Of a stretch of DNA of 64,000 nt, positions 37,342-56,800 are shown piece after piece. Source of the stretch: an uncultured Lentimicrobiaceae bacterium (GTDB taxonomy: Bacteria > Bacteroidota > Bacteroidia > Bacteroidales > 4484-276). The translations under genes and the position numbers were made by a program. The notes beneath the pieces are model-generated. The model did no database searches and had not been told where the DNA came from. It saw nothing but the letters and a program-made list of their open reading frames with translations. The stretch spans positions 15 to 64,014 of the forward strand of contig CAZGAO010000017.1 in the NCBI GenBank assembly GCA_964523795.1. The letters run 5' to 3'. The first letter of the stretch is position 1. Every line of letters begins with the position of its first letter.

Positions 37342-37342
37342 G

Positions 37343-39131: not shown

Positions 39132-39158
39132 TTTAAAATTTAATAATTGGCAACAAAT

Positions 39159-40850
39159 ATGGAAGCATCAACAACCGTAAATAAAATGTTAGCAGGGAAT
39201 AAGATATTTGTTCCTACTTATCAACGAGCTTATTCTTGGGATACAGAATTTGACAAAAGTAAAACACCAAAACAAGTAAATGTATTTTTGACTGATTTAG
39301 AAGATTACAATAAAAGTTCAGCTATAACATCCTATTATTTTGGTCATTTTCTGTTTGAAGAAAAATCAGAAAGCAATTTTGGAGTTATTGACGGACAGCA
39401 ACGATTAACAACGATTGTTATTTTTCTTTCTACCTTATTTTCAAAATTAAAATCAATTCGACTATTAACTGAAAACGAAGAAGTGCTTTTTGAAAATATG
39501 ATTAAGCGTAAATCAAATTACATTTTTTCAACTGTTGATTATGACAATCAGTTGTTTAAAGACTATGTAGTTGAGCAAACCAAAAAAAATAAAAATGGAT
39601 TGGAAACTGAATCAGCGAAACGAATAGTTAATGCTTTCGACTTCTTTACAAAAGCCTTATCCGACAAGGACGAAGTTTATTTGTCTAAAATGCTAAAAAC
39701 AGTAAATGAAGCATCTTGCTCAACACATCCAGTTAAAAATGAATCCGAAGCAATTCAAATGTTCATTTTTCAAAACAATCGTGGAAAGAAGCCCTCAAAC
39801 TTAGAAATTATAAAAGCTCAGTTTATGTTTAATGTTCATCTTTACGGTGGAGATGAAAAAGACAGCTTAATTGATGAAATAAAAAATAGATTTGAAAAAA
39901 TATATAAATCAATTTCGTCTATCGAATACAAAATTAACGAAGATGATGTTTTGGTTTACACTTTGAGAGTTCATTTCAACTCACTTTGGGAATCAAATGC
40001 AATAGACAAAATCAATAAACTTTTATCGGAAAACAATCCAATTCCTTTTATCAAATCATTTACAAATTCGCTTGCAATTAGCTTTGAACATTTAACTACA
40101 TTTTTCGGAAAGGACGAAAGAGAAAATATTGAAATTCATTCCCTTATAACATTAGGTGGTTTTGCAATAGCAATTCCATTTGTAATTAAAGCTTATACTT
40201 TCGGACTTCAAACAAATGAAATATGTAAGATTTGTTCGACAATGGAAGCGTTAGTTTTACGTCATAGACTTATTGGAACAAGGGCAGAAATGACATCAAG
40301 AATTAATGGCATTTTTCAAGAATTTAATGCAGAACATCCTGATACAAAACCAATAATTGACAGAATTGAATGGATGAAAACGACAACTGATTGGTGGTGG
40401 GCATATTGGAATAAATCACATTTAGAAGAATCAATACAAGGTGGATTAAATCATTCAATTGCAAAATTCTTACTATGGAAATATGAAAATTATCTTGAAA
40501 GTAATGGACAGTCAGGTTATATTTTAAAAAGATTTGACAACATAGAAAGTCCTGAATTAGAACATATTGCTCCATCAACTGAACCAGTCCTTAAACCTCA
40601 CGGATATGGAGAATATAATGATGAATTTAGAAATGAATACCTTAATTGCTTAGGGAACTATTTGCTTTTATCAAAATCACATAATTGTTCTGCAAGTAAT
40701 AATACTTTTCCTATTAAAAGAAAGGACTATACCTATCTTGCTCAACAAAGAGAAATCAGTGATATGACAAAAGAAACAGAGATTTGGGATAAGGAAAAAA
40801 TTAGTTTTCGGAAACAAAAAATAGTGAAATTTATACTTGAAAACTTATAG
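39159..40850 (+). CDS. DUF262 + DUF1524 protein (GmrSD-like, candidate modification-dependent nuclease)
   Basis: N-terminal FVPTYQRAYSW and IDGQQRLTTIVIFL (DUF262 / ParB-like NTPase). C-terminal ELEHIAPS ... LGNYLLLSKSHNCSASNN (DUF1524 His-Me finger). The ATG at 39159 is preferred over the TTG at 39147. The segment is AT-rich. Confidence 0.8.
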   Translation: MEASTTVNKMLAGNKIFVPTYQRAYSWDTEFDKSKTPKQVNVFLTDLEDYNKSSAITSYYFGHFLFEEKSESNFGVIDGQQRLTTIVIFLSTLFSKLKSIRLLTENEEVLFENMIKRKSNYIFSTVDYDNQLFKDYVVEQTKKNKNGLETESAKRIVNAFDFFTKALSDKDEVYLSKMLKTVNEASCSTHPVKNESEAIQMFIFQNNRGKKPSNLEIIKAQFMFNVHLYGGDEKDSLIDEIKNRFEKIYKSISSIEYKINEDDVLVYTLRVHFNSLWESNAIDKINKLLSENNPIPFIKSFTNSLAISFEHLTTFFGKDERENIEIHSLITLGGFAIAIPFVIKAYTFGLQTNEICKICSTMEALVLRHRLIGTRAEMTSRINGIFQEFNAEHPDTKPIIDRIEWMKTTTDWWWAYWNKSHLEESIQGGLNHSIAKFLLWKYENYLESNGQSGYILKRFDNIESPELEHIAPSTEPVLKPHGYGEYNDEFRNEYLNCLGNYLLLSKSHNCSASNNTFPIKRKDYTYLAQQREISDMTKETEIWDKEKISFRKQKIVKFILENL

Positions 40851-41253: not shown

Positions 41254-44200
41254 ATGAAAAATCTCTTCTTTACACTTTTAACGCTTTTTGCCTTTCAGGT
41301 GCTGCTTGCACAAAAAGGCTTCGATGTGAGCTACAGCTACCCCGATTCGCGAAGCATCGAAATCGAGTTTGCACTCGATGGCTATGCGGTGGATGATCTA
41401 AGCGAAGCAGGTGTCTTGTACAAGCAAATTATTTCGGATATGCCGCTACACAGCCAAAAAGCAGGCTGGGCCGAGCTGCCCTACATGACGGCGGCTCTGC
41501 AACTCGATAATTTAAAAAATTATTCCATTCAGTTTGTTGAGGGCGACTGGACTGATTTACACTTAAACACCCCCCTCCTACCCTCCCGTGGCGTAATTTA
41601 CCGCGATCAGGATCCCTCGGCAATTCCTTATCAAATCGATCCGGCCTCCCTTGTCGATCGTTTTTATCCGGCCATCGAATGCGAAATGATCGAGCCTTAC
41701 ATTATTAAAGATGTGCGTGCTGCTACCGTAATGGCATATCCTTTTAGATACAATGCTGCTAAACAGACCCTGCGCGTGTATCGCTCGATGACTATTCGGC
41801 TGGTTCAGAATGATGAAGATCCTTTAAATCCGCTATACCAAAGCCAGGCCCTTCCGCTACGCGAGATGATAGGGATTTACCAAAGTGCTTTTATAAATTA
41901 CGAAGTCCCCGAAGACTTGACCATTGCCGATAATGGCGAAATTTTGGTGATTACCACCGCCCGCGATGAAACCGCCATGCAGCCTTACATCGACTGGAAA
42001 ACCGAAAAGGGCTTTGTGGTACACAAAGAAGTGGTGGCCACCGGAACCAACGTGGATAATCTGGTGCAAAGCAGCTACGATGCCAACAACAATATTTTGT
42101 ATGTTTTGCTGGTGGGCGACTGGGCGGATATAAAATGCGCCAACAGCGGCGGCACACCGCAAGACCCCCAAACCGGCTGTGTGGTAGGCAGCGACAACTA
42201 TTTCGACATCAGCATCGGGCGGCTTGCGGCCGGCTCGGCTTCGGATGTTAGCGTGCAGGTGAACAAAATTATCAGCTACGAAAAAGAACCCGACATGGGC
42301 GCATCGTGGTACGAAACTTCTACGGGAATCGCCAGCAGCCAGGGTACCGGCGACGACGGTGAGTACGACAATGAACATATCCAGATTATTTACGACGATA
42401 AGCACGAGCCTTTCACCTACAACCTTTTCAACGATATTTACGATCCTGTGGCAAATACCACCATGGTAAGCGCCGCCCTGGAAACGGGAACCAGCGTTAT
42501 CAATTATTGCGGCCATGGCTCATCCACTTCCTGGGGTAGCTCGGGTTTTAGCAATAGCAATATCGCATCGCTGACCAATGGCAGCAAGTTGCCCATCATT
42601 TTTTCGGTGGCTTGTGTTAACGGTGCCTATCATTCCACCTACTGCTTTGCCGAGGCCTGGATGAACCAGAATGGCGGCGGTGCGGTGGCCACGCTTATGT
42701 CAACCATCAACCAGGCCTGGGATCCACCCATGCGCGGGCAGGATTATTTTAACGACCTGCTTATTGGTGGTTACGATTATGATGCTCATCCCGGCCAAAA
42801 CGGGATCTCGACTACCGAAGGCCGTCATAGCTTTGGCTCGATCGTTTTCAACGGCCTGGTGCTGATGATTACCGAATCGCCCGGCGACCTGGAAACGGCC
42901 AACACCTGGATATTATTTGGCGACCCCGCCATGCAGGTGCGAACAGCCACACCGGCCAGCCTTACCTATTCGAATAATGTGATGCTGGTAGGCACAGCCT
43001 TCGAGACTAACGTTTATAAAGCCGGAGTTCCCATGCAAGGAGCCATGCTTGCGCTTTCGCAGGATGGCACTACCCACTCGGCAATCAGCGATGCCTCAGG
43101 CTTTATTTCTATCCCCAACGATTTCCTGCCGGGCGATGTGCAGATTGTGATCACCGGATTTAACTGCGAAACGGTTTATGAAACCATCCAGTGTATTCCG
43201 CCAACAGGGCCTTATGTTATTTTTGATACTTATGTTTTAAATGATGTAAATGGAAACAATAATGGCATTCTGGAATATTTTGATGGTGCTGTTAATTTGG
43301 ATTTTAGTATGAAAAATGTAGGTGTTGAAAATTCGGTAAATGTGGTCGTTACAATCTCCTCGGACGATCCTTACATTACCATTAGCGATAACAGCGAAAA
43401 CTTTGGCACGATCAATGCTGGCGAGGCTGTTAATGTAATCAACGCCTTTGCCTTTGAGGTGGCCGGCGATGTGCCCGAGGGGCATTCCATCATGTTTGAT
43501 GTGGTGGCTGTGGCCGAAGAAACCTGGGAGAGTACCTGCGCTATCATGGCTTATTCGGCACTTTTGGAATACGAAAGTTTTATTATCGACGACAGCCAGG
43601 GAAACAACAATGGAATCCTGGATCCCGGCGAAACCGCAAGCCTGGTAGTAAGCATTGCCAACAATGGTTCTGCCGATGCCTTTGGTGTATTTGGCAGTCT
43701 CGAAAGCCTGGATAGCCATGTTATGGTCAACTCCGGCGAGCCGCAGGAATTTGGCGATATTTTGGGCAATCAGAGTGGAACGGCAACCTTTAGCGTTACG
43801 GCGGTAAGTTCCATTCCCGGAGGGTATATTGCCGATTTGAACCTTAACTTTACTGCCGATTATGGCTTTGCCGGCACGGCTACCTTCGGCTTGCTTTTCC
43901 CGGATTATTGCTACGGCGAAGGCAACTGCAGTTATGGCGATGGCATCACAGGGTTTATCCTCAAAGATATCCAAAATATGGACAACGGCTGTAGTGCTGA
44001 CAACGGCCTGACTGGCTATGGCGACTTTTTGGATATGAGCACCCAGCTCGAACCTGGGCAAAGTTATACGGCCTCTTTCAAAACCGGATACTCCAATCAA
44101 TATCTTTGCCTATGGATCGATTTTGACGATGATAAAGAATTTGAGACCGATGAACGATTAATTTCCGACCTTGTTCTTGCAAATGCCAACCAGGTTTATA

Positions 44201-45129
44201 CCGCCGAAATCACTCTCCCGACCAATGTGCCAACAGGTCAAAAGCGGATGCGTGTTCGCGCCCAATGGCAGAATAGTGCCATCGATCCCTGCGAAGACTG
44301 GAGCTATGGCGAAACCGAAGATTACACTGTGATTATTGGCCAGCCGCCTTATATGCCCCCACCCGTAAATCTTACGGCACAGCTTAGCGGCAACGATGTT
44401 AGCCTGAACTGGGATGAGCCCGAAAGACTAGAGATGCTTGGCTACAATGTATATCGCGATGGCGAAATGCTGGCACAGATGCTTACTGTAAATACCATGA
44501 TGGATGGGGATTGCCCCGATGGTAGCTACTGGTACGCGGTTACCTGCGTTTATGCCGAAGGGGAATCGGATCATTGCAGCCCGGTGCAGGTAAATATTGG
44601 CGACTTTGCGGGTAAGATCCAAGGCTTTGTGCGCGATGCCACCACCAACATCACCATCCAGGATGCCTGGGTTTCGGCCCTAAATGCTGACTTTGGCGCA
44701 GTAAATTACCAAACGCCTTTTGGCGGCCATTATACCTTGACTCTTCCGGGCGGAACTTATGATGTGGTGTGCCAGGCCAACGGTTATCAGGATTCCTTTG
44801 TGGAGAATGTTGTGCTGGAGGATTATGGCACACAAAGTATTAATTTCTATCTCCTTCCGGATACTTATGAGGAAATCCTTACCGGAATTATGGATGTTGA
44901 CAAAAAAGGTATTCAAATGTATCCCAATCCGGCTGATGACATTTTAAATCTGCGAATTTCGGCAAACAGCCAAATTCTTATTTTCAGCCATACCGGCCAA
45001 AAAGTATTAGCCCTGGTTAGTTTGACCGGCGAAGAAAAAATCAACTTAAACAGCTTTGAATCCGGCATTTATCTGGTTCGGATTATTTCGGGCAATCGCA
45101 GCTACCACGAAAAGCTGATTGTGAAATAG
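41254..45129 (+). CDS. peptidase C25 (gingipain-like cysteine peptidase) with GEVED, Fn3-like and CarbopepD_reg-like modules and T9SS CTD
   Basis: YVLLVGDWADI, YCGHGSSTSWG (catalytic His) and IFSVACVNGAY (catalytic Cys). RVRAQWQNSAIDPCEDWSYGETEDYTVII is a GEVED domain. GKIQGFVRDATTN...GGTYDVVCQANGYQ follows. C-terminus IQMYPNPADDILNLRI...GIYLVRII...KLIVK. Confidence 0.85.
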   Translation: MKNLFFTLLTLFAFQVLLAQKGFDVSYSYPDSRSIEIEFALDGYAVDDLSEAGVLYKQIISDMPLHSQKAGWAELPYMTAALQLDNLKNYSIQFVEGDWTDLHLNTPLLPSRGVIYRDQDPSAIPYQIDPASLVDRFYPAIECEMIEPYIIKDVRAATVMAYPFRYNAAKQTLRVYRSMTIRLVQNDEDPLNPLYQSQALPLREMIGIYQSAFINYEVPEDLTIADNGEILVITTARDETAMQPYIDWKTEKGFVVHKEVVATGTNVDNLVQSSYDANNNILYVLLVGDWADIKCANSGGTPQDPQTGCVVGSDNYFDISIGRLAAGSASDVSVQVNKIISYEKEPDMGASWYETSTGIASSQGTGDDGEYDNEHIQIIYDDKHEPFTYNLFNDIYDPVANTTMVSAALETGTSVINYCGHGSSTSWGSSGFSNSNIASLTNGSKLPIIFSVACVNGAYHSTYCFAEAWMNQNGGGAVATLMSTINQAWDPPMRGQDYFNDLLIGGYDYDAHPGQNGISTTEGRHSFGSIVFNGLVLMITESPGDLETANTWILFGDPAMQVRTATPASLTYSNNVMLVGTAFETNVYKAGVPMQGAMLALSQDGTTHSAISDASGFISIPNDFLPGDVQIVITGFNCETVYETIQCIPPTGPYVIFDTYVLNDVNGNNNGILEYFDGAVNLDFSMKNVGVENSVNVVVTISSDDPYITISDNSENFGTINAGEAVNVINAFAFEVAGDVPEGHSIMFDVVAVAEETWESTCAIMAYSALLEYESFIIDDSQGNNNGILDPGETASLVVSIANNGSADAFGVFGSLESLDSHVMVNSGEPQEFGDILGNQSGTATFSVTAVSSIPGGYIADLNLNFTADYGFAGTATFGLLFPDYCYGEGNCSYGDGITGFILKDIQNMDNGCSADNGLTGYGDFLDMSTQLEPGQSYTASFKTGYSNQYLCLWIDFDDDKEFETDERLISDLVLANANQVYTAEITLPTNVPTGQKRMRVRAQWQNSAIDPCEDWSYGETEDYTVIIGQPPYMPPPVNLTAQLSGNDVSLNWDEPERLEMLGYNVYRDGEMLAQMLTVNTMMDGDCPDGSYWYAVTCVYAEGESDHCSPVQVNIGDFAGKIQGFVRDATTNITIQDAWVSALNADFGAVNYQTPFGGHYTLTLPGGTYDVVCQANGYQDSFVENVVLEDYGTQSINFYLLPDTYEEILTGIMDVDKKGIQMYPNPADDILNLRISANSQILIFSHTGQKVLALVSLTGEEKINLNSFESGIYLVRIISGNRSYHEKLIVK

Positions 45130-46722: not shown

Positions 46723-47115
46723 ATGTTAGAACTAATTGCAATTACCGGAACGATATTGAGCCAAACGAAAAAGCTGATGGAAAACCCTGCCGTTGGCGAT
46801 GCCGTAAAAGGCGTGATCAACTGGGTTGGCGGCGTGCTGGGCAAGGATTCGGCACGGAAAAAGCTCCAGGAAATCGAAGCCGACCAGCACGATGAAGGAA
46901 CAATAAAGAGTATCGAGTCGAACCTGGAATATGTGCTCGAAGGTAACGAAGCCCTGCAAAAAGAGTTGGCTGCCAAAATTGAAGAACTGCAACAAATTGC
47001 TGCCCGCGAGGGGGTACCAATGGTTACCAAAACCAACACCATAACCATTACGGGCGATGGCAGCAAAGCCTTTCAGGATTTAAAAGTAGGCGGCGATTTT
47101 ACTTACAACGGATAA
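46723..47115 (+). CDS. small helical protein (130 aa), first gene of the six-gene cluster; possible adaptor
   Basis: Predicted all-alpha / coiled-coil centre (LQEIEADQHDEGTIKSIESNLEYVLEGNEALQKELAAKIEELQQ). The C-terminal ITITGDGSKAFQDLKVGGDFTYN motif is repeated at the N-terminus of the next protein. The stop lies 1 nt before the next ATG. Confidence 0.6.
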   Translation: MLELIAITGTILSQTKKLMENPAVGDAVKGVINWVGGVLGKDSARKKLQEIEADQHDEGTIKSIESNLEYVLEGNEALQKELAAKIEELQQIAAREGVPMVTKTNTITITGDGSKAFQDLKVGGDFTYNG

Positions 47116-47116
47116 T

Positions 47117-48352
47117 ATGAACGATAAGGATCATGCGCTTGCCGGGGAAGCTGCAACCAGCATAAGTGAAACGATAAAGCAAAACGCCATCACGAATAAT
47201 GGTGATGGAAATGTTGTTATGCAGGACATTACTGCCCGTGATATAACCATCAACATTGCCAGTGGTTTGCCGCCGGAGGTGAAGCAAAAAAAAGAAGAAC
47301 TTAAAGCAAGGGTTCAAAGCCTGGCAGATAATCTAAGCGTCCTCAAGGAGCAAATAGCACCTGCTGAAATCCCTGCAGATTTCGAGCCGCCCAGCGACCC
47401 TGCATATTCAAAAATTAAATGGCGTAAGCTTCTGCAAGCCTTGCAGCATAAAGGCTGTATTTTGTTTGTAGGCCCCGAAATAGCCATTAACGAACAGGGC
47501 AATTCGCTGCATCGCGAGTTTTATAAGGTGCTGACCGAGGACTTTGACGACATCGAATACCTGGAGCAGGAAGGTTTCTTCACTCCCGAATCCGATGAGG
47601 AAATTCTTTACGATGTGCTCGAATATTACTCCAAAGATTTTCCAACCCAAAACAAAATCGGGCGCAAGCTCTTGGAGCAGTTTGCACAAATTCCTTTCGA
47701 TCTGATCCTTTCGCTTTGCCCTGACGATACCATGCGTCGTATTTTTGAAGACTACGACCTGGAGCATCGCTTTCTGTTTTACGATGGCTCGAAGCAGGAA
47801 ATCGATGCCGCCGAAAACACAACGGTGATTTATAATGTGCTGGGCAATGCTGCCGACAATGGGCGATATATTTTTACGCACGAACAGTTTTATCAGTACC
47901 TCAACAAAATTATTATTCCCTCGGCTATCAAAAAGAAGATACAGGATGCCAGCCACTTTTTGTTTATCGGTTTCGATTTTGATAAATGGTACAATCGCTT
48001 GCTGCTTTTCATCCTCGATTTTGAGCAGAAGAGAAGCGGCGGCCATCGCCTGATTGTGGGCAACAAAAAGATAAAAGAAGATATCGAGAAATTTATCGAG
48101 AAGCAGTTCAACATCACTTTTGTGGATAACGAGTACTCCCAATTTATCGAATGGCTTTCGCTGAATGCAGCGCAGGAAGGACTTTTGCGAAATCTGAACC
48201 AGGTTTTTGTGCAGAATAATTTCAGGGCCTTGAAGTATATAAGCATCCGTGTAACCGATGATGATAAACTGGAAGATTTGCTGAAGATGGAAGAACTGAC
48301 CACTGCTATTGATCAAAAAATAGAACAATTCAAAAAACGAATACAAAACTAA
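47117..48352 (+). CDS. SIR2_2-like domain protein with divergent catalytic positions
   Basis: Colinear with the SIR2_2 layout: CILFVGPEIA (GAG loop), PFDLILSLCPDD (in place of iiTTNYD), IYNVLGN...RYIFTHEQFYQYL (in place of klHG...lvlTeedY), HFLFIGFDFDKW (in place of llfiGySlsD). N-terminal AITNNGDGNVVMQDITARDITIN motif. Confidence 0.55.
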   Translation: MNDKDHALAGEAATSISETIKQNAITNNGDGNVVMQDITARDITINIASGLPPEVKQKKEELKARVQSLADNLSVLKEQIAPAEIPADFEPPSDPAYSKIKWRKLLQALQHKGCILFVGPEIAINEQGNSLHREFYKVLTEDFDDIEYLEQEGFFTPESDEEILYDVLEYYSKDFPTQNKIGRKLLEQFAQIPFDLILSLCPDDTMRRIFEDYDLEHRFLFYDGSKQEIDAAENTTVIYNVLGNAADNGRYIFTHEQFYQYLNKIIIPSAIKKKIQDASHFLFIGFDFDKWYNRLLLFILDFEQKRSGGHRLIVGNKKIKEDIEKFIEKQFNITFVDNEYSQFIEWLSLNAAQEGLLRNLNQVFVQNNFRALKYISIRVTDDDKLEDLLKMEELTTAIDQKIEQFKKRIQN

Positions 48353-48353
48353 A

Positions 48354-50528
48354 ATGGGCATCCGACGATATCCGGGGGCAACGCCCTTTAGCAGCGATCA
48401 GGCCAGGATTTTTTATGGCCGCGACAGCGACATCCAAAAGATGCTCACCCTGATACAGGTGGAAAAAAAAGTTTTGCTTTACTCCAAATCGGGGCTGGGC
48501 AAAACCTCCCTCCTCGAGGCGGGCGTTATTCCAAAGCTGCCCATAAATTATATGCCCGTCAGCATTCGTCTTTTTGCCAGCACCAAAGATGCCGTTTCGC
48601 CGGTGGCCAGCGTGCGCCAGGCTTTGAAAAAAGTAATCGATGGTCTGGACAAACTCCCTGATACGCTCCTGGATCAACTGAAAGCGGATGACCAAAAAGA
48701 CAGCTCGTTGTGGTATCTTTTCAAAAAGTTGCAATTGGCCGGCTTGGACAAAAATGAAGAGGGTAAGCAGATAATATACCTGCTGGTTTTTGATCAGTTT
48801 GAAGAGCTTTTTTCCTATTCTCCTGCCCAGATTCTGGATTTCAAAAACCAACTTTACGAACTTACCGAGCAAAGGGTGCCCGACCGTTTTGCCGCACAAA
48901 TTGCTGCTGCACGGCGCAACAATAAAGAACTTTTTACGCGCGAAGCCCTGGCCACACTTCATCAGCGCATGGACATTAAAACGGTGTTCGCCATCCGCTC
49001 CGACCGTTTGAGTTTGCTCAACCAGCTCTCGGACAAAATTACCGACATCCAGCAGGTGTATCACGAAATAAAACCCCTGAGCAATACGCAGGCCATCGAG
49101 GCGGTGGTAAAACCTGCCGCAGACAAGGATACGGTTTTTGAAACCCGACCCTATACTTTTCATTCCGATGCGTTGGCTGCCATTATTCACAATCTTTCTA
49201 TCGATGAGAACGCTGCCGAAAAGTCGCAGAAGCCCATCGAAACCACACAGCTACAAATTGTATGTCATCGCATCGAGGAAGTTGCAGAGGCAAAATATCT
49301 AAAATTAGCAAATGCAAAGGCCGATACGGTAATCGAGATTGCAGAGAAGGATTTACCCAGTTTTTCAAATATCTTTTTGGATTTTTATAACGATTCTATC
49401 CAAAAGATCGAGGAGGGCAGTCGGGCTAATGCCAAACGCCTGATTGAAGATGAGCTGATACGAAGCAATCAAAGAATTTCGCTCGACGAGAATATTTGCA
49501 AAGATTTTATCAATGCTGACCAGCTTAAAAAACTTGTTGACACCCACCTGCTTCGTGCCGAGCGCAACAGTTTCGAGCGATTTAGCTTTGAGTTATGCCA
49601 CGACACGCTGGTAAATCCGATTCTGGAATCGCGCAAGCAATTTAAGGCCGAAGAACAAGAAAGGGTGCGTGAACTAAAGCGCAGAGCCGATTTGGAGGCA
49701 TTGAAGAAAAAACAGAAAGAAGAAAGACTGGCGCAGGAGGTTGAGATGAAACGCCTGAGAGAAGAGCAAGAACGCAAGGATAAAGAAAGGGTGCGCAAGC
49801 TGCGACAACAACGGATAATCACCGGCATCGTTGCATTTTTTCTACTGGTCTCACTTGGGCTGGGATATTGGGGTTACATTAATTTTTGTGAAGCCTCGGA
49901 GCAGCGCGACATCGCTCTTTTAAAAGAACAGGATGCACAGGGAAATCTGATCAATTTCATGGATGCCCAATATGATAATTATTTCGAGAATGCCCAAGGT
50001 GCCACCAAAGATGCAGATTATACGCTTGCAATTCAAAACTACTATGAGGCAATACCGTGGATTCACGCAAATATTGTTAGTGCCGTTGATACCGGAAGCG
50101 ACTGCAATATTTTTACTGTATTGTTTTCGTCTCAAGCCGAAGAAAATTATCTGAAGGAGCACAGCAAAATCTACCGCGCGCAAGAGGAATTAGCTATCAG
50201 CGATAGCTTGAGCAAAATGTTGGCGGTGATCGATGGTATAAAGTTTTGCGAGCGAAAAGCCTCCAAAAAAGCCACCATCGATAGCTTGCACAGGCAGGCA
50301 AACAGCTATATGCGAAAGCGCAATTATATAAAGGCACTCCAACTCTTCCGTGAGGCCTATCGCGAAGACGACAATATGCCGGGAAGCAAGCAAAAATTTA
50401 TTGATGCCAAAAAAGAAGCGGTGCGGATGTACGAAAAAAGCATGGATGATTACCGGGAAATTGGCGATCAGGCTGAATGGGAAAGAGCCGAAGACTTATT
50501 AGATCAGGTAAATTTGATACGATTGTAG
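48354..50528 (+). CDS. nSTAND-type (novel STAND) P-loop NTPase with coiled coil, one TM helix and a C-terminal helical-repeat domain
   Basis: RYPGATPFSSDQARIFYGRDSDIQKM...LLYSKSGLGKTSLLEAGVIPKL (nSTAND1-like N-terminus plus Walker A). LLVFDQFEELF (Walker B). Charged coiled coil KQFKAEEQERVRELKRRADLEALKKKQKEERL.... TM helix IITGIVAFFLLVSLGLGYWGYINF. TPR-like tail. Confidence 0.7.
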   Translation: MGIRRYPGATPFSSDQARIFYGRDSDIQKMLTLIQVEKKVLLYSKSGLGKTSLLEAGVIPKLPINYMPVSIRLFASTKDAVSPVASVRQALKKVIDGLDKLPDTLLDQLKADDQKDSSLWYLFKKLQLAGLDKNEEGKQIIYLLVFDQFEELFSYSPAQILDFKNQLYELTEQRVPDRFAAQIAAARRNNKELFTREALATLHQRMDIKTVFAIRSDRLSLLNQLSDKITDIQQVYHEIKPLSNTQAIEAVVKPAADKDTVFETRPYTFHSDALAAIIHNLSIDENAAEKSQKPIETTQLQIVCHRIEEVAEAKYLKLANAKADTVIEIAEKDLPSFSNIFLDFYNDSIQKIEEGSRANAKRLIEDELIRSNQRISLDENICKDFINADQLKKLVDTHLLRAERNSFERFSFELCHDTLVNPILESRKQFKAEEQERVRELKRRADLEALKKKQKEERLAQEVEMKRLREEQERKDKERVRKLRQQRIITGIVAFFLLVSLGLGYWGYINFCEASEQRDIALLKEQDAQGNLINFMDAQYDNYFENAQGATKDADYTLAIQNYYEAIPWIHANIVSAVDTGSDCNIFTVLFSSQAEENYLKEHSKIYRAQEELAISDSLSKMLAVIDGIKFCERKASKKATIDSLHRQANSYMRKRNYIKALQLFREAYREDDNMPGSKQKFIDAKKEAVRMYEKSMDDYREIGDQAEWERAEDLLDQVNLIRL

Positions 50529-50532
50529 CATT

Positions 50533-53500
50533 ATGAAAAAGATATTTATCATAGTATTTCTGCTTGGGATCACATTTTCGTTGCTTGCGCAGGAAAGCGA
50601 TTTTAAGCGGAATTTCGACAAGGCAAAGGTTCTTTTCGCAAGCGAAACGCCGAATTACATCAAGGCTTTTCAGTATTTCGACAAGGCCTACGACTGGGCT
50701 GTCAGCACAAGCGAAGAAGATTTGGCCATGGAATGGAAAAACAAATGCCGCGTAGCCATCCAAAAGCAACAAGCCAAATTGGAAATTACTATCGGGCAAA
50801 ACCAGGATATCATCGGAGCCTTTTATTTTTACGACAAAAAATTTGCCCTGGCCTTTAAGGATAACAAATACGGCTTTATCGATACCCTGGGACAGGCGGT
50901 AATTGGCTACAAATACGACGAGGGGCGACCCTTTGACAACTATGGCCTGGCTCGCGTAAAACGCAATAATCAATATTTTTTGCTCGACACCGCCAAAACC
51001 GAATATTTGCTTGCCGATGGTTTTAATCGCCTGGTGGCCGAAACGCAGGCACTCGACCTGAGCAATAAGCAGCTCAGCGAATTGCCCGAGCTGGTGCTAA
51101 AAATTCATGGATTGAATATCCTCATGCTGAGCGGGAATTTTATCCACCAAATACCTGAAGATATTGCATTGCTTGCGCAAATGAAGATGCTGATTTTGAA
51201 TAATAATTTATTGCGCCATTTACCCGATAGCATCGGGAAACTGCAAAATCTAATAGTGCTCGATGTAAGCGATAATCGTCTGGATTCACTGCCAGCTTCG
51301 ATGGGTGAATTGAGCGGTATGCGCAATTTTTATATGTCCAACAATTTTATAAGTCATGTCCCTTCCGGGATTCAAAATATGAGGCAGCTTACCAATCTCG
51401 ACCTAAGCAACAATCAAATTCGCACGCTGCCCACAGCATTGGGGCAACTCGAAGATTTGAAAACTTTGAAAGTAAATAATAATATACTCGAAGATGTTCC
51501 TGATATTGTTTTTAGCTTTACTGCTATTGAATATCTCGACCTGAGCGGGAATGCGATTAAAAATTTGCCTCCGGCAATCGAAAGGCTTGATGATTTGCTT
51601 AGCCTGGATATTAGCGGAAACAGTATCGAAAGCCTGCCCTCCGAAATCAGAAAGCTGGATCATCTGCAGGTATTATCTTTTGCTGGAAACCAGATAAGTG
51701 ATATCCCACCGCAGATTGGCGAACTTGATCAATTGAAAATACTGGATGCTTCTGAAAACGCCATCGGGGATTTACCCGATTCTTTTGAAAACCTGGATAA
51801 CTTAACGATGCTCGATTTGGGTGGCAACCGATTACAAGCGTTTCCTGATCACCTATTAAAAATCAAAGATTTAAAAATTTTAAAACTAAACAACAACAAT
51901 ATCCCAATTATTCCCAGCCAAATTCATCAGCTAAAAAAACTAAATACTTTTGATATTAGTCATAACAATCTTCGCATTGTTGCTCCTCAAATCGATTCGC
52001 TTACCCATCTTACCCGGCTCTTTTTGAATAATAATAAAATCGAACAACTGCCTGCCGGAATTAGCCAACTACTTTTGCTGGATGAACTGGATGTAAGCTA
52101 TAATAATCTTTCGGCCTTGCCTGCCGATTTTGATAATCTGGAGTACTTGCAGTGGCTAAATCTGAGTAATAACAAGTTTAGCCAATTTCCACCCGTGTTA
52201 ACAAATCTTTATGCTTTAAGCGATCTTGATATTTCCAACAATCAACTCACAAGCCTTGATGCGCAAATCGACCGAATGACCCGGTTAACGAAACTCAATG
52301 TTTCGGTAAATCAACTAAAAGAATTGCCCGCCAATATTGGAGGGCTGCATCACCTAAGGCATCTCAACGTTTCGGATAATCAGCTTAGCACATTACCACA
52401 GGATTTGGGAAAACTGAAAAAGCTGACTTATTTAAAACTAAATAATAATCAACTCGACACACTTCCTCTTGCCCTCTTTAATCTTGACGCATTAAGCACC
52501 TTGGTTGCCAGCAATAATCAAATCAGCACGCTGCTCAAACGCTTACCACACCTGACTAATCTTAGCCATATAGATTTACGCAACAACGCACTGGACACAA
52601 TCCCACGCGGATGGGCTTTGCTACCCAAATTGCAAGTGCTGGATCTGCGTGGCAATCCCAATCTAGATCTCAATACGCTGATACACGCTTTTAGCCTGTC
52701 AAGCAGGAAAATTATTATTTCGGCAGGCAAAAACGATTACAGTACACTGGTGGATGAAAACATTACACTGATAAAAATTGACCCACCGGCTTCGCTTCCT
52801 GCTAAATTGTATAAATTGAATAATTTGCTCCTGCTCGACATTCAGGGAGCCGAAGGCATAACTGTAGATAATATTTTGAATATTACCGAAAAGCAACGCA
52901 ACAAATTTGTTTATGCCAGCTCGGCCTTTCCTGATTTGAGCGACCGCAACAAGACGGTGATAAATATGGATGCAAGTCTTTTTTTGAAAATGCGACGAAA
53001 TACCCAAGTTCAAAACAATGAACTGGACTTATCCGGGGAAGCATTGGTAGATATTTCTTTTCCGTCAGCAACATTCAAAGATCTGGAACGCCTGAATTTA
53101 AGCAATACTGCGCTAAGAAAACTTCCTAACGACCTCTGGAAATTTAAAAACCTACGCTACCTTGATCTAAGCAAAAATGAACTCTCGGGCATCCTGCCTG
53201 GCGAAATTAAAAGCCTAAGCAGCTTGCACAGCCTGGATATCAGCGGCAATAATTTTTCAGACCTTCCATCTGAAATAGAGGATTTATCTCAGCTTAACAG
53301 TCTGCTGGCCAACAACAATAATTTTACACTGCTTCCGCAAACCATCGGCAATCTGCACAATCTAAAGTATTTAGTTTTGGATGACAATCCACTGGCTGCT
53401 CTTCCCGATTCGCTGGCCGCATTGAAAAACCTCAGCTATCTCAGCCTTAATATCGATAGCCTGACTATGATTCCCGATGACTTTGCAATCCTGGCAAACA

Positions 53501-53826
53501 TTGACGGCCTGAAAACGCTAAGCCTAAATGCCGGAGCTATGGCTAGCTTACCTGATGAGATCGGTCTGCTGCGCAATATCGAAGTGCTGTATATTACGGC
53601 TGATAATGCCGAAGAACTTACAGACCGGATTGGTGAGCTGGACAACTTAAGCGAATTGCATCTGTGGATGGAAAAACTAAAATCGCTGGCCGATGGCCTT
53701 GAAAATTTAAGTAAGCTCAAACGCTTACACGTAAATTCAAGCCTGCTAAACCAGGATTTGGAAAGCCTGGGGAAAGCTCTGCCCGATTGCGAAATAATTA
53801 TTGAAAACAAAATCACGCAGCCATGA
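50533..53826 (+). CDS. secreted leucine-rich repeat protein (~38 LRRs) with N-terminal WG/KWG-like repeats
   Basis: Signal peptide MKKIFIIVFLLGITFSLLAQ. YGFIDTLGQAVIGYKYDEGRPFDNYGLARVKRNNQYFLLD is WG-repeat-like. A long run follows of 23-aa LxxLxxLxLxxNxLxxLPxxI units. Confidence 0.85.
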   Translation: MKKIFIIVFLLGITFSLLAQESDFKRNFDKAKVLFASETPNYIKAFQYFDKAYDWAVSTSEEDLAMEWKNKCRVAIQKQQAKLEITIGQNQDIIGAFYFYDKKFALAFKDNKYGFIDTLGQAVIGYKYDEGRPFDNYGLARVKRNNQYFLLDTAKTEYLLADGFNRLVAETQALDLSNKQLSELPELVLKIHGLNILMLSGNFIHQIPEDIALLAQMKMLILNNNLLRHLPDSIGKLQNLIVLDVSDNRLDSLPASMGELSGMRNFYMSNNFISHVPSGIQNMRQLTNLDLSNNQIRTLPTALGQLEDLKTLKVNNNILEDVPDIVFSFTAIEYLDLSGNAIKNLPPAIERLDDLLSLDISGNSIESLPSEIRKLDHLQVLSFAGNQISDIPPQIGELDQLKILDASENAIGDLPDSFENLDNLTMLDLGGNRLQAFPDHLLKIKDLKILKLNNNNIPIIPSQIHQLKKLNTFDISHNNLRIVAPQIDSLTHLTRLFLNNNKIEQLPAGISQLLLLDELDVSYNNLSALPADFDNLEYLQWLNLSNNKFSQFPPVLTNLYALSDLDISNNQLTSLDAQIDRMTRLTKLNVSVNQLKELPANIGGLHHLRHLNVSDNQLSTLPQDLGKLKKLTYLKLNNNQLDTLPLALFNLDALSTLVASNNQISTLLKRLPHLTNLSHIDLRNNALDTIPRGWALLPKLQVLDLRGNPNLDLNTLIHAFSLSSRKIIISAGKNDYSTLVDENITLIKIDPPASLPAKLYKLNNLLLLDIQGAEGITVDNILNITEKQRNKFVYASSAFPDLSDRNKTVINMDASLFLKMRRNTQVQNNELDLSGEALVDISFPSATFKDLERLNLSNTALRKLPNDLWKFKNLRYLDLSKNELSGILPGEIKSLSSLHSLDISGNNFSDLPSEIEDLSQLNSLLANNNNFTLLPQTIGNLHNLKYLVLDDNPLAALPDSLAALKNLSYLSLNIDSLTMIPDDFAILANIDGLKTLSLNAGAMASLPDEIGLLRNIEVLYITADNAEELTDRIGELDNLSELHLWMEKLKSLADGLENLSKLKRLHVNSSLLNQDLESLGKALPDCEIIIENKITQP

Positions 53827-56800
53827 AAAATATATTCGAGACATTAATTGGTTTAAAAATACTGGCACTTGCGCTCATGCTTAATACCCTTGGGCTGAGC
53901 GCACAGGAACAAGCAGGGGCAAACCAAAACCAATCGTACGCTAAAGTCATAAAAAATATAAGCGAATGGTCGCAGGGAAAAATCACCGGTGCCAGAGTTC
54001 TTGAAATTATCGCGTTGCCCGTGGTGCAAAAGAAGTTGCCGATGAATCCAAACCGACTTTTGGGCGATACCATTTTTATCGTGCCCGAAATTGCGGTAGC
54101 AGCTTACGATCAAAACCAGATCAGCTTTCAATACTTCCCCGAAGATACTTTTTTTGAAGATTCGATACTAATTTCCTTTCCGCAAAATCCCGGCTGGATT
54201 ACGGGCAGCACGGTCGATTCAACAAGTTCGGAAATTGCCGTTAACATCCAAACCAACGCTTTGCCTGAGCCGCGATCAACGCCGGTGCGCATTCAGGGAA
54301 TCATAAATACAGATACGGTGGAATACACAGCCTATATTCTTCAGCAGGCACAGCAACAACAGTTTATCCTGGTGTTGCCACAATTCCTCACGCTGTCTCC
54401 CGAAGCAGCCTTAACAATCCCCATCGATATTACTACCATAAACGTAGATGGCTGGACGGCCATTTTTACTACAAACTGGATTTCGGTTGATTCAGCAAGT
54501 CTGACCAATCAAAGCATTCGTTTCGATGTGGCAGCCAACAACGGAAACAGCAGTCGCACGGCGACAATCGAAATTCAGGATATCGAAAATCCGGATATTG
54601 CTGCGCAAATTACGCTCACGCAAGAGGCTTCTTTTCTTGTGCTCGATCCGGCGCAGGTGCTGGTTCCCTGCGAGGGGGCAAATATTTTAGTAAATATTAG
54701 CAGCCTTAACGTGGATAGCATCGTGGTGGATGCAGGCGTTTTTTTTGGTACTGTACAAATTTTCAGCAACGATAGCCTTGCCCTTACTATCCCACCCAAT
54801 CCTGATGCCACAGCACGACAAGCAAGTATTTCGGTTTGTAGTTTTGATAATCCTGCAATTTGCGCCGAACTTGATGTTTTGCAATACAGTTGCAATCAGG
54901 CTTACATCGTAATAAGTCCGGCCTTTCATTCGGTGCCTTACGAAGGAGGGCTTAGTCCTGATTACTTTATCAACACCTCCAATGTGCCGACCTGGGAAGT
55001 TATTTTTGATAATGCAATTCCCTGGATTACGGATACGATTTTTGATGGCGGCAATTTGCGTTTTCAAGTAGCAGCAAACAGCGATGCTGCAAGCCGGTCG
55101 GCAACTTTTAAGGTACGCAGCACAAGCAATGGCGCAATCGTGGATTCGGCAGTTTTGTTTCAGGCTGGTGCTCCAATGCCGGTTATTTTAGCTTCGCCAC
55201 GCACACAAGTGGTAAGCCATCAGGGCAGCGACAGTGTGGATTTTATTATTACTTATCAAAATATCGATAGCTGGACTTTGGATAATGCCACCCTGCCTCC
55301 CTGGATAACTGTTGATGCCGCTGCCGGCAATTTGCTTAGTCTGGATGTGATGAGCAATAACAGTAATATCACGCGCAATGCGAATATCCGGATTTTTTCG
55401 CCTGCTACGCCCCAGGTTCGCGACAGCGTTTTTGTAGTTCAATATGCAGCTCCCGAGCAGGATTTGGTGGCAGCACCGCGCCAGCAATCACTGCCCTGGA
55501 CTGCTTCTCCTTCGGTGGCTTTTGCAGTAACTGCCGTTAATGTAGATCATTGGCTGGTGGATACCACCGCGCTACCAGCCTGGATAAATGTGGCCGTTTC
55601 GGGCGATGAAGTGCTCATGTTGGATGTGGAAGCCAACCTTTCGGCATCAACGCGTCAGGCAGTGATTTCGATTTTTGACTCGCTGCAAACCGAGGTGCGC
55701 GACTCGGTTTCGATTTATCAGTTTGCACAAACCGAAGCCTATCTGATTGCCTCGCCACGCGAAAAAAGATTGAGCCGATTGGGTGCCGAAAAAACTGATT
55801 TTGTAATTTCGAGAGCCAACGTGGAGAACTGGGAAACTGATGTTACGACCCTACCCTTATGGATAGAAGTGCTGAACGAGGGTAACGATACCCTGAGTTT
55901 GAAAATCACCGAAAACCCATCAATGCAAACCCGGAGTGCAAGCATCAGCATATTTGCAACGGAGGATACTACGGTTAGAGATTCGGTTTTTGTTTTTCAA
56001 TATGCTGCAAACGACACCGTGCTGATAGCCGCACCGCGCGAAGTGCTTCTGCCTGCCGAAGGAAGCCCTGCCGTTGATTTTGCGATTACCGCACTTTACG
56101 TGGATGCCTGGCGGGTGGACGAAGATATGCTGGCAGATTGGATTGAAGTGGTAAGCACGAGCGAGGATTCGCTGCGCATTAGCGTAAGTGCCAACGATAG
56201 CCCAGGTACACGCAGCGCAATGATTCAGATTTATGATACCTTGAATCGAAATATCAGCGACAGCTTATTTATTTATCAATACGCCACGCCGCAAGCCTAC
56301 ATACTTATATCTCCCCGGTCGGATACCTCGGGCTTTACCGGAAAAACTACCTCTTTCGATATTACTACCGTAAATATTTCGGGCGACTTATTTTTTGATG
56401 AAGCCTTGCTACCCGAATGGATTGAAGCGGAAATTGTAAATAATTTATTGAATGTGGAAATAAATCCCAACGGCAACTCTGCCACACGCGAAACCACGAT
56501 TGTAGTTTATGAGGATAACAATCCTGATATTCGCGATTCAGTTTTAGTGTATCAATATGCCCTGCCCGGGAAATATCTGTTGGCCGCGCCACGCGAACAA
56601 AGCGTGGGCCACGAGCCGGGCACCGCCTTATTCGATATTACCGCCGTGGGCATGGATACCTGGTTTGTGGACACCACCACACTTCCCGCCTGGATTCCCG
56701 AATACAGCATGATAGGGCAAAGCATTATGTTTTCTTATCAGGAAAATTTAAGCCTGCAAACCCGATCTGCAAGCATTCGCATATTTGCCGATTCGATGGC

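What the first reader, a model, noticed from the sequence alone, without database searches (positions are those of the whole stretch)
47117..48352. SIR2_2-like scaffold in which the canonical catalytic Asn and His positions appear substituted
The order of conserved blocks matches SIR2_2. However, the block normally reading TTNYD reads SLCPDD, and the block normally reading HG reads LGN. If my by-eye alignment is right, the protein may not hydrolyse NAD+. It could instead be a nucleotide or ADP-ribose sensor, or use different chemistry. That would be unusual for a defence-type SIR2.
Basis: inference. Interest (0 to 1): 0.55.

Follow-up and report, generated by a model that had tools for sequence, protein, structure and literature searches.

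The report
Catalytically degenerate SIR2 adaptor of membrane STAND
The gene encodes a true SIR2-fold protein that has lost the residues SIR2 enzymes need to break down NAD+; it belongs to a large, undescribed family that always sits next to a membrane-anchored STAND ATPase and looks more like a signalling adaptor that recruits a killer protein than a toxin.

Summary
ORF 47117-48352 (411 aa) has a SIR2 fold: it matches Pfam SIR2_2, and its AlphaFold model hits ThsA, KomC, DSR2 and Avs5. A profile-profile alignment to ThsA (96% probability) puts C201 at the catalytic Asn112 and L242 at His152. The NAD-binding GAG loop reads GPE.

This is not a one-off. The family has over 2,200 clusters at 50% identity. 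No sampled member has His at that position, and Asn survives in only 8%.

The context changes the interpretation. In 69 of 74 cases the gene is followed, usually with overlapping stop and start codons, by an nSTAND1 NTPase. That NTPase has no N-terminal adaptor domain and nearly always carries a transmembrane helix.

The SIR2-like protein carries a variable adaptor:
- Most members have a C-terminal EAD11 domain, sometimes matched by an EAD11-TIR gene in the same locus.
- The window's clade has a 25-residue N/T/G/I-rich N-terminal motif. The same motif ends the upstream 130-aa helical protein, as in Bell/BASS amyloid-signalling gene pairs.

My best reading is a SIR2 pseudoenzyme acting as the scaffold or adaptor subunit of a split, membrane-bound SIR2-STAND system. 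Loss of NADase activity, ligand sensing and amyloid templating are all inferred, not tested.

The parts
46723..47115 (+). 130-aa Bell-like small protein. It has a helical bundle (aa 2-96) with an N-terminal hydrophobic helix (MLELIAITGTIL, Glu at position 3) and a disordered C-terminal tail.
   Evidence: The AF2 model has helices at 2-13, 15-18, 22-39, 42-52, 58-72 and 76-96 with pLDDT 81-91; aa 104-130 are below 50. A homologue lies directly upstream of the SIR2-like gene in 17 loci. There are no Pfam, PADLOC or NCBIfam hits and no Foldseek PDB match.
47032..47112 (+). C-terminal ~25-aa N/T/G/I-rich motif of the small protein (KTNTITITGDGSKAFQDLKVGGDFTYNG).
   Evidence: It matches the N-terminus of the next protein. 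Cognate ungapped BLOSUM62 scores average 43.8, against a shuffle null of 22.7±4.8 with a 99th percentile of 37. The motif regex occurs only in these two protein classes among 2,692 ORFs, with one stray hit.
47117..48352 (+). SIR2-like protein of 411 aa, the subject of the finding.
47177..47257 (+). N-terminal partner motif (aa ~21-47, KQNAITNNGDGNVVMQDITARDITINI), disordered in the monomer model.
   Evidence: pLDDT is below 50 for aa 1-35. The motif is conserved in the clade alignment A1 and paired with the upstream protein's tail.
47273..47353 (+). Long helix (aa 53-79) linking the motif to the SIR2-like domain.
   Evidence: The AF2 model shows helix H53-79 with pLDDT 88-97.
47396..48184 (+). 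SIR2-fold domain (aa 94-356).
   Evidence: Pfam SIR2_2, Foldseek, hhalign to ThsA, and a family profile that finds 2,224 representative proteins.
47471..47479 (+). G119-P120-E121, replacing the G-A-G of the GAGxS NAD-phosphate loop.
   Evidence: hhalign; translation; family counts G 228, P 204 and E 167 of about 229.
47717..47719 (+). Cys201 codon at the position of the catalytic Asn (ThsA N112). The following P202-D203 are nearly invariant.
47840..47842 (+). Leu242 codon at the position of the catalytic His (ThsA H152). N240 and G243 are conserved.
48194..48349 (+). C-terminal two-helix hairpin (aa 360-410). It occupies the place where most family members carry EAD11.
   Evidence: AF2 helices H360-381 and H385-410. 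EAD11 is present in 72 of 132 family representatives but is not detected here.
48354..50528 (+). nSTAND1 NTPase of 724 aa. The NTPase starts at residue ~1 with P-loop SKSGLGKT, followed by a charged coiled coil, a TM helix and a TPR-containing tail.
   Evidence: Pfam nSTAND1 at 3.9e-23 and TPR_2 at 644-674. The same gene follows the SIR2-like gene in 69 of 74 cases.
49815..49871 (+). Predicted transmembrane helix of the nSTAND1 protein (aa 488-506).
   Evidence: Hydropathy scan: 57 of 61 full-length nSTAND1 partners have such a helix just after the NTPase module.
50533..53826 (+). Signal-peptide LRR plus WG-repeat protein of 1,097 aa. It is a probable extracytoplasmic partner and its membership in the system is tentative.
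   Evidence: Pfam LRR_14 at 1.5e-85 and WG_beta_rep. LRR or WG-repeat proteins occupy the same position in L025, L028, L034 and L035 and in several other loci.

Best explanation
The protein is a SIR2-fold pseudoenzyme, at least with respect to canonical NAD+ glycohydrolysis. It serves as the constant, separately encoded 'N-terminal domain' of a membrane-anchored nSTAND1 NTPase.

Shown:
- It has the SIR2 fold.
- Asn, His and the GAG loop are replaced family-wide.
- The gene is almost always followed by, and usually overlaps, an nSTAND1 gene that has no adaptor domain of its own and carries a transmembrane helix after the NTPase module.
- The SIR2-like protein carries a variable adaptor. Most members have a C-terminal EAD11, sometimes matched by an EAD11-TIR protein in the same locus. 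The window's clade has an N-terminal 25-residue N/T/G/I-rich motif, which is repeated at the C-terminus of the upstream 130-aa helical protein.

Inferred mechanism:
1. A signal is perceived outside the cytoplasm by the nSTAND1 tail, possibly together with the secreted LRR/WG protein.
2. This drives NTP-dependent oligomerisation of nSTAND1.
3. The bound SIR2-like subunits are clustered. Active SIR2 domains assemble into helical filaments in the ThsA, KomBC and Avs5 entries.
4. Their disordered N-terminal motifs come together and adopt a beta structure that templates the identical motif on the Bell-like protein.
5. The Bell-like protein's N-terminal hydrophobic helix is released to attack the membrane. 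In EAD11 relatives, a TIR effector is recruited instead.

The conserved, remodelled cleft probably binds something, either a ligand or a segment of nSTAND1. What it binds is unknown.
For: - Fold and residue mapping.
- Family-wide loss of the motifs: position 201 is C/T/S/A, with Asn in 20 of 240; position 242 is L/F/I/M and never His; the loop reads GPE.
- Large family under selection: 2,224 representatives at E<=1e-3 and 487 at E<=1e-30.
- Adjacency: 69 of 74 SIR2-like ORFs are followed by nSTAND1 on the same strand, with a modal 4-nt overlap. The 5 exceptions are short or truncated ORFs, one of them cut by the locus end.
- The nSTAND1 match starts at residues 1-17, so there is no room for an adaptor domain.
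- 57 of 61 nSTAND1 partners have a TM helix.
- Adaptors: EAD11 in 72 of 132 representatives and EAD7 in 7; EAD11-TIR is the third gene in L048, L049 and L056.
- Motif pairing with the upstream protein.
- The small protein is a five-helix bundle with a disordered tail. It starts with M-[ML]-E plus a hydrophobic helix, matching the Bell-domain description: 120-140 aa, an N-terminal hydrophobic helix with an acidic residue at position 2-3, and a five-helix bundle (bioRxiv 10.1101/2020.01.06.895854).
- The genes are collinear with gaps of 15 nt or less, or a 4-nt overlap, as reported for Bell/NLR pairs.
- The motif is rich in N, G and I and poor in K, P and L, similar to the BASS bias.
- The Foldseek hits include helical-assembly entries of ThsA, KomBC and Avs5.
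Against: - No biochemistry: loss of NADase activity is inferred from residues only.
- PaAvs5 is active with NG in place of HG, so SIR2 chemistry tolerates some change.
- D203, the Asp of TTNxD, is invariant, and N240, K290, W291 and Y292 line the same cleft. That also fits a working, non-canonical active site.
- Evidence that partner motifs co-vary within loci is weak (permutation p=0.04, and cognates are often not the best match).
- The small protein has no detectable homology to any known pore-former.
- In known BASS systems the N-terminal motif sits on the NLR itself, not on a separate protein.
- 17 of 74 SIR2-like genes carry neither a detected EAD11 nor an upstream Bell-like gene.
- No direct evidence shows that the SIR2-like protein binds nSTAND1.
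Confidence: 0.5

Rival explanations
1. It is still an enzymatic effector. The SIR2 cleft has been rebuilt (E121, D203, N240, H255, K290, Y292) to cleave NAD+ by a non-canonical route, or to act on another nucleotide or substrate. EAD11 or the N-terminal motif merely docks this effector onto the system alongside TIR or Bell-like co-effectors.
For: The cleft-lining positions are the most conserved polar residues in the family. The domain sits where effectors sit in EAD-type proteins, as domain plus EAD11. Avs5 shows that the HG motif can be replaced by NG without loss of function. Asn is retained at position 201 in 8% of members.
Against: Three separate NAD motifs are changed at once: GAG to GPE, Asn to C/T/S/A, and His to L/F. 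Position 201 varies freely among C, T, S, A and N, so it is not under catalytic constraint. The His position always holds a hydrophobic residue. nSTAND1 carries no EAD11 or matching motif, so the only partners for the adaptor are other effectors such as TIR or the Bell-like protein. That makes the SIR2-like protein the bridge rather than the cargo.
Confidence: 0.2
2. It is a ligand sensor or regulatory subunit. The remodelled cleft binds, without cleaving, NAD+, ADP-ribose or a TIR-made signal, and gates nSTAND1 or effector recruitment.
For: The cleft is conserved although the catalytic residues are lost. The domain is fused to TIR domains in P0144, P0146 and P0226. It also shares EAD11 with TIR proteins in the same operon.
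Against: The window's own locus and its clade contain no TIR or other signal-generating enzyme. A Glu in the phosphate-binding loop (GPE) argues against binding a pyrophosphate-containing ligand in the canonical pose; this point rests on general knowledge of Rossmann GxG loops. There are no binding data.
Confidence: 0.2
3. It is a decaying relic of a SIR2 effector with no function of its own.
For: The canonical catalytic residues are lost.
Against: The family has over 2,200 representatives at 50% identity, with near-invariant residues, a confident fold and strict synteny with nSTAND1.
Confidence: 0.02

Closest known systems
Avs5 (AVAST type 5) and other SIR2-STAND defence proteins
   Same: A SIR2-fold module lies immediately N-terminal to a STAND NTPase that carries a C-terminal sensor region. 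The Avs5 filament entry 9nc9 is among the Foldseek hits.
   Different: Here the SIR2 module is a separate polypeptide and lacks GAGxS, the Asn of TTNxD, and HG or NG. The NTPase is nSTAND1 and is membrane-anchored. The SIR2 module carries adaptor modules (EAD11 or a short beta-prone motif) that match other proteins. Neither the SIR2-like protein nor nSTAND1 matches any PADLOC model.
ThsA (Thoeris) SIR2 NADase
   Same: It is the best structural match (6lhx, E=5.5e-8). The profile alignment has 96% probability, and the order of motif blocks is the same.
   Different: There is no SLOG domain. N112 is replaced by Cys, H152 by Leu, and GAG by GPE. Sequence identity is about 14%.
Bell-domain / BASS amyloid signalling pairs, and fungal HET-S/NWD2 (Dyrka et al., bioRxiv 10.1101/2020.01.06.895854)
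   Same: A ~130-aa helical protein has an N-terminal hydrophobic helix with an acidic residue at position 2-3. Its ~25-aa C-terminal motif is repeated at the N-terminus of the next, collinear and often overlapping gene. The motif is rich in N, G and I and poor in K, P and L.
   Different: The N-terminal motif is on a SIR2-like protein, not on the NLR; the STAND is the third gene. The host phylum is Bacteroidota, where Bell domains were reported as rare or absent. Homology to Bell could not be tested, and amyloid formation is untested.
EAD-coupled nSTAND1 conflict systems (Kaur, Burroughs, Iyer and Aravind, eLife 2020 and 2021)
   Same: The NTPase is nSTAND1, and nSTAND1+TM architectures appear 412 times in their source data. 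Most family members use EAD11 or EAD7 adaptors, and matched EAD11-TIR partners occur in the same locus.
   Different: The SIR2-like partner is not labelled in the neighbourhood tables I could search: there is no 'SIR2+EAD11' string, and only 7 mentions of SIR2 against 1,181 of nSTAND1 in the file that holds their nSTAND1 tables. The window's clade uses a short beta-prone motif instead of an EAD.

Membership tests
SIR2_2 / defence-type SIR2 NADase | SIR2 (Rossmann-type) fold with the SIR2_2 order of blocks | tested here: met
   Pfam PF13289 at 36.2 bits, above the 24.5 cutoff. Foldseek hits to ThsA, KomC, DSR2 and Avs5. hhalign probability 96.4%.
SIR2_2 / defence-type SIR2 NADase | GAGxS NAD-phosphate binding loop | tested here: not met
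   The loop reads G119-P120-E121-I-A. Family counts are P 204 and E 167 of about 229.
SIR2_2 / defence-type SIR2 NADase | Catalytic Asn of TTNxD (ThsA N112, Avs5 N110) | tested here: not met
   Cys201 is at that position. Family counts are C 75, T 67, S 54, N 20 and A 13. The Asp of the motif is retained (D203, 229 of 235).
SIR2_2 / defence-type SIR2 NADase | Catalytic His of HG (ThsA H152), or Asn in the NG variant (Avs5 N153) | tested here: not met
   Leu242 is at that position. Family counts are L 135, F 75, I 12 and M 8, with no His or Asn.
SIR2_2 / defence-type SIR2 NADase | NAD+ glycohydrolase activity | not testable with these tools
   This needs an enzyme assay.
SIR2-STAND (Avs5-like) | SIR2 and STAND NTPase in one polypeptide, with SIR2 at the N-terminus | tested here: not met
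   They are separate genes, but adjacent in the same order in 69 of 74 cases, with a modal 4-nt overlap. P0101 fuses them in the opposite order, with nSTAND1 N-terminal to the SIR2-like domain.
SIR2-STAND (Avs5-like) | Match to known Avs or defence-system profiles | tested here: not met
   There are no PADLOC hits for the SIR2-like protein or for nSTAND1.
Bell/BASS-NLR amyloid signalling pair | 120-140 aa helical-bundle effector with an N-terminal hydrophobic helix and an acidic residue at position 2-3 | tested here: met
   The upstream proteins are 128-139 aa and start with M-[ML]-E-[LIV]-I. AF2 gives a five-helix bundle. These are shared features only. Homology to Bell was not tested because no Bell model was available.
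Bell/BASS-NLR amyloid signalling pair | ~25-aa motif shared by the effector C-terminus and the N-terminus of the adjacent collinear gene | tested here: met
   Cognate score 43.8 against a shuffle null of 22.7±4.8. The motif is exclusive to the two protein classes. Gaps are 15 nt or less, or a 4-nt overlap.
Bell/BASS-NLR amyloid signalling pair | The motif-bearing partner is itself an NLR (NB-ARC or NACHT plus repeats) | tested here: not met
   The partner is the SIR2-like protein. The STAND (nSTAND1 plus TM plus TPR) is the next gene and has no motif.
Bell/BASS-NLR amyloid signalling pair | The motifs form amyloid and cross-seed | not testable with these tools
   This needs fibril or prion assays. 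Within-locus co-variation is only marginal (p=0.04).
EAD-coupled nSTAND1 conflict systems | nSTAND1 NTPase | tested here: met
   PF20703 at E=3.9e-23.
EAD-coupled nSTAND1 conflict systems | Matched effector-associated domains (EADs) on the core and effector proteins | tested here: not met
   No EAD is detected in the window's proteins. The feature is met in relatives: EAD11 in 72 of 132 representatives, and EAD11-TIR in L048, L049 and L056.

The most novel reading that the evidence does not exclude
A widespread family of natural SIR2 pseudoenzymes is the hub of a transmembrane, outside-in cell-death or immune pathway in Bacteroidota and Acidobacteriota. An extracytoplasmic TPR/LRR/WG sensor would signal to a membrane-spanning nSTAND1 NTPase. 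The SIR2-fold scaffold would then nucleate either an amyloid-like assembly that fires a Bell-like membrane-disrupting protein, or an EAD11 assembly that recruits TIR. This would be the first SIR2 domain repurposed as a signalling scaffold. It would also extend amyloid signalling to a new phylum and to a three-protein relay.
Probability: 0.25. Interest if true: 0.85.

Novelty: new variant of a known kind. Interest (0 to 1): 0.62.

Why it matters
Bacterial SIR2 domains are currently treated as NAD+-depleting toxins, and annotation pipelines label this protein simply 'SIR2 family protein'. A family of more than 2,000 clusters that keeps the fold but not the chemistry would change that picture. 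Its strict coupling to a membrane-anchored STAND NTPase and to swappable adaptors would show that immune enzymes can become pseudoenzyme scaffolds in bacteria, as pseudokinases and pseudocaspases have in animals.

The finding also gives a concrete three-gene cassette for testing amyloid-type signalling outside Actinobacteria and Cyanobacteria. In addition, it suggests that some STAND systems sense signals from outside the cytoplasm. Practically, it warns against inferring NAD+ depletion from a SIR2_2 hit alone.

Tried and rejected
- Sequence searches of the PDB found nothing relevant, either with the protein (phmmer) or with the family profile. Only fold and profile-profile comparison linked it to ThsA.
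- PADLOC and NCBIfam gave no hits for the small protein, the SIR2-like protein or nSTAND1.
- I considered that the small protein is EACC1, which nSTAND1 papers mention. I rejected this: there is no Pfam EACC1 hit. EACC1 has a central glycine-rich TM helix and is paired with caspases that cleave it, and no protease is conserved here.
- Foldseek of the small-protein model against the PDB gave no match (best E=2.3), so I cannot claim a structural link to HeLo, MLKL or other pore-formers.
- A test for within-locus co-variation of the paired motifs was only marginal (permutation p=0.04). I do not claim co-evolution.
- P0101 (nSTAND1, then SIR2-like, then EAD11) could suggest a C-terminal 'sensor' position. 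I give it little weight, because systems occur in tandem (L021, L039) and the fusion may join neighbouring systems.
- Literature searches for naturally inactive bacterial SIR2 domains found nothing relevant. The Kaur et al. supplements list nSTAND1+TM architectures but contain no 'SIR2+EAD11' label.
- I could not inspect the model's coordinates, so statements about the pocket rest on alignment to ThsA, not on geometry.
Full report
**1. The observation**

ORF 47117-48352 (+) encodes 411 aa. Pfam SIR2_2 matches aa 203-330 above its gathering cutoff (E=7.8e-9, 36.2 against 24.5 bits).

Sequence searches of the PDB found nothing, with either the protein or the family profile. An AlphaFold2 model built on 36 homologues is confident (pLDDT 84, pTM 0.85). 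Its best Foldseek hits are all defence SIR2 domains: ThsA 6lhx (5.5e-8), KomC/HAM-SIR2, DSR2 and the Avs5 filament.

**2. Residue mapping**

I needed a trustworthy reference, so I first checked the B. cereus ThsA sequence against the PDB. It is 100% identical to 6lhx_A, and entry 8bto differs from it by Ala at residue 112.

hhalign of a 240-member family alignment against a ThsA SIR2-domain alignment gave probability 96.4% and E=1.4e-9 over 192 columns. The pairings are:

| This protein | ThsA |
|---|---|
| IPFDLILSLCPDD | LPIHTYWTTNYDR |
| C201 | N112 |
| D203 | D114 |
| VIYNVLGN | VVYKMHGD |
| L242 | H152 |
| LFVGPEIAI | IFAGAGLSM |
| GPE (119-121) | GAG |

The predicted secondary structure agrees: a strand at 196-199 followed by a helix at 205-212, and a strand at 236-240. 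The by-eye alignment is therefore right. A third NAD motif, the GAG loop, is altered as well.

**3. It is a family trait, not an accident**

A profile of the domain (aa 92-357) found 2,224 representative proteins (50%-identity clusters) at E<=1e-3, and 487 at E<=1e-30. Counts in 240 sampled members:

| Position | Residues |
|---|---|
| 201 (Asn site) | C 75, T 67, S 54, N 20, A 13 |
| 242 (His site) | L 135, F 75, I 12, M 8; never His or Asn |
| 120 | P 204 |
| 121 | E 167 |

The 20 members that keep Asn still have GPE and [LF]G. The Asn site therefore looks released from constraint rather than re-used.

The most conserved positions nevertheless lie in the same motif blocks: G119, P202, D203, P236, Y239, N240, G243, G285, K290, W291 and Y292. 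The cleft has been remodelled, not abandoned.

The Avs5 paper gives useful calibration (PMC12931631). It calls GAGXS and TTNXD 'characteristic of all known Sirtuins'. It also shows that HG can be NG and still work. So loss of His alone would not prove inactivity. The triple change, with a hydrophobic residue at the His site, makes canonical NADase chemistry unlikely. This remains an inference.

**4. Genomic context**

In the window the gene sits in a tight same-strand run:
- a 130-aa ORF at 46723-47115, separated by a 1-nt gap;
- the SIR2-like gene, followed by another 1-nt gap;
- a 724-aa nSTAND1 NTPase at 48354-50528;
- a 1,097-aa signal-peptide LRR/WG-repeat protein at 50533-53826.

I fetched 67 related genome loci, mostly Bacteroidota MAGs with some Acidobacteriota and Gemmatimonadota. 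69 of 74 SIR2-like ORFs are followed on the same strand by nSTAND1, with a modal 4-nt overlap. The five exceptions are short or truncated ORFs, one of them cut by the locus end.

The nSTAND1 match begins at residues 1-17, so the NTPase has no N-terminal adaptor or effector domain of its own. 57 of 61 full-length partners have a hydrophobic helix right after the NTPase module. In the window this helix is aa 488-506. It is preceded by a highly charged coiled coil and followed by a TPR-containing tail, which would put the tail outside the cytoplasm.

The gene after nSTAND1 is a signal-peptide LRR or WG-repeat protein in the window and in four other loci I scanned with Pfam. Similarly sized ORFs hold that position in several further loci. 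'nSTAND1+TM' architectures are catalogued in the source data of Kaur et al. 2021 (412 mentions). I found no 'SIR2+EAD11' label there, and only 7 mentions of SIR2 in the file holding their nSTAND1 tables.

**5. The SIR2-like protein carries swappable adaptors**

Of 132 family representatives, 72 have a C-terminal EAD11 and 7 have EAD7. Others are fused to TIR or trypsin domains, and P0101 is nSTAND1, then SIR2-like, then EAD11.

In L048, L049 and L056 the third gene is EAD11-TIR. The order there is [SIR2-like-EAD11][nSTAND1-TM][EAD11-TIR]. nSTAND1 has no EAD11, so the EAD11 on the SIR2-like protein can only pair with the effector's EAD11. The SIR2-fold domain is then left to contact nSTAND1. 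This is the architecture of a bridge, not of cargo.

**6. The window's clade uses a different adaptor**

Seventeen SIR2-like genes, including the window's, have a 128-139 aa ORF directly upstream, with a gap of 15 nt or less or a 4-nt overlap. The last ~25 residues of that protein have the consensus KTNT[IM]xITG[DN]xNIx[FL]QDIxxxGNIxI. They match the first ~25 residues of the SIR2-like protein, whose consensus is NTSNITGDxNIVLQDIxARDIxINI.

- Cognate ungapped scores average 43.8, against 22.7±4.8 for composition-preserving shuffles with a 99th percentile of 37.
- A regex for the motif hits only these two protein classes among 2,692 ORFs, with one stray hit.
- The motif is rich in N, T, G and I and poor in K, P, L and E.
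- It is disordered in both AlphaFold models.

The small protein is a confident five-helix bundle (aa 2-96) that starts M-[ML]-E-[LIV]-I.

All of this parallels the Bell-domain/BASS pairs of Dyrka et al. Their effectors are 120-140 aa five-helix bundles with an N-terminal hydrophobic helix and an acidic residue at position 2-3. The ~25-aa motif is shared with the N-terminus of the next, collinear gene, which often overlaps it.

There are differences:
- The partner here is not the NLR but a SIR2-like protein.
- The phylum is one where Bell domains were reported as rare or absent.
- I could not test homology to Bell.
- No PDB fold match exists.
- Within-locus co-variation of the motifs is only marginal (p=0.04).

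L018 adds a linking case: its upstream small protein is EAD11 plus the same kind of C-terminal motif.

**7. Most likely mechanism**

The pair [SIR2-like][nSTAND1] looks like a split, membrane-anchored version of the SIR2-STAND architecture known from Avs5. In it the SIR2 module has lost its chemistry and become the adaptor-bearing subunit.

Steps shown:
- the fold;
- the residue losses;
- the strict gene pairing;
- the TM helix;
- the adaptor modules and their matched partners.

Steps inferred:
- nSTAND1 oligomerises on an extracytoplasmic cue.
- It clusters the SIR2-like subunits. Active SIR2 domains assemble into helical filaments in the ThsA, KomBC and Avs5 entries.
- The clustered N-terminal motifs template the identical tail of the Bell-like protein.
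- That protein's N-terminal helix then damages the membrane. In EAD11 relatives a TIR effector is recruited instead.

I put this at about 0.5. The rivals are a non-canonical enzyme (0.2), a ligand sensor (0.2, and compatible with the scaffold model) and a relic (0.02).

**8. Comparison and novelty**

The closest known systems are Avs5, ThsA, Bell/BASS-NLR pairs and the EAD-coupled nSTAND1 systems. The protein fails defining tests for each as a strict member:
- It has no GAGxS, Asn or His.
- It is not fused to the STAND.
- The motif partner is not an NLR.
- No EAD is present in the window.

It does plausibly work like a hybrid of them. Neither the SIR2-like protein nor nSTAND1 matches PADLOC. 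I found no description of a naturally degenerate bacterial SIR2 family in the held literature. I rate it a new variant of a known kind, with interest 0.62. The whole functional reading is computational and needs the assays listed under next steps.

Noticed in passing
window 46723-47115 and 47177-47257; L001-L021: A 128-139 aa helical protein encoded directly upstream ends in the same ~25-aa N/T/G/I-rich motif that begins the SIR2-like protein. This is the gene arrangement of Bell/BASS or HET-S/NWD2 amyloid-signalling pairs, seen here in Bacteroidota.
   Followed up: yes
window 48354-50528 (TM helix at 49815-49871); 57 of 61 related loci: The partner nSTAND1 NTPases carry a transmembrane helix straight after the NTPase module. 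Their variable C-terminal regions (TPR in the window) are probably extracytoplasmic, which would make this a membrane-spanning STAND.
   Followed up: partly
window 50533-53826; L025 8702-11575, L028 8756-11203, L034 5548-8208, L035 2970-6206: The gene after nSTAND1 is recurrently a signal-peptide LRR and/or WG-repeat protein, with an S8 peptidase domain in L035. It could be an extracytoplasmic sensing partner. I did not test whether these proteins are orthologous.
   Followed up: partly
L048 11732-12604, L049 8777-9631, L056 8573-9445: In Acidobacteriota and Gemmatimonadota loci the third gene is EAD11-TIR, matching the EAD11 on the SIR2-like protein. Direct TIR plus SIR2-like fusions also exist (P0144, P0146, P0226).
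   Followed up: partly
L018 5550-5960: A 136-aa protein combines an EAD11 domain (E=6.5e-23) with a C-terminal copy of the short beta-prone motif. It links the two adaptor types.
   Followed up: no
L021 and L039: Two SIR2-like/nSTAND1 cassettes occur side by side: in tandem in L021 and divergently in L039. This suggests local duplication and diversification.
   Followed up: no
window 39147-40850: A GmrSD-type (DUF262/DUF1524) type IV restriction enzyme, matching PADLOC HEC-06 at E=4e-37, lies about 6 kb upstream. It is the only other defence-like gene I saw nearby.
   Followed up: no
window 41254-45129 and 53823-58790: Two very large T9SS-sorted proteins flank the cassette: a C25 gingipain-like peptidase with a GEVED domain, and a BACON/PKD protein. 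The start of the BACON protein overlaps the LRR gene's stop by 4 nt, and the same order is seen in L001. Whether it belongs to the system is unknown.
   Followed up: no
window 36271-38098: A LytTR-type two-component pair (a His_kinase-domain protein and a response regulator) lies upstream. It is probably unrelated.
   Followed up: no
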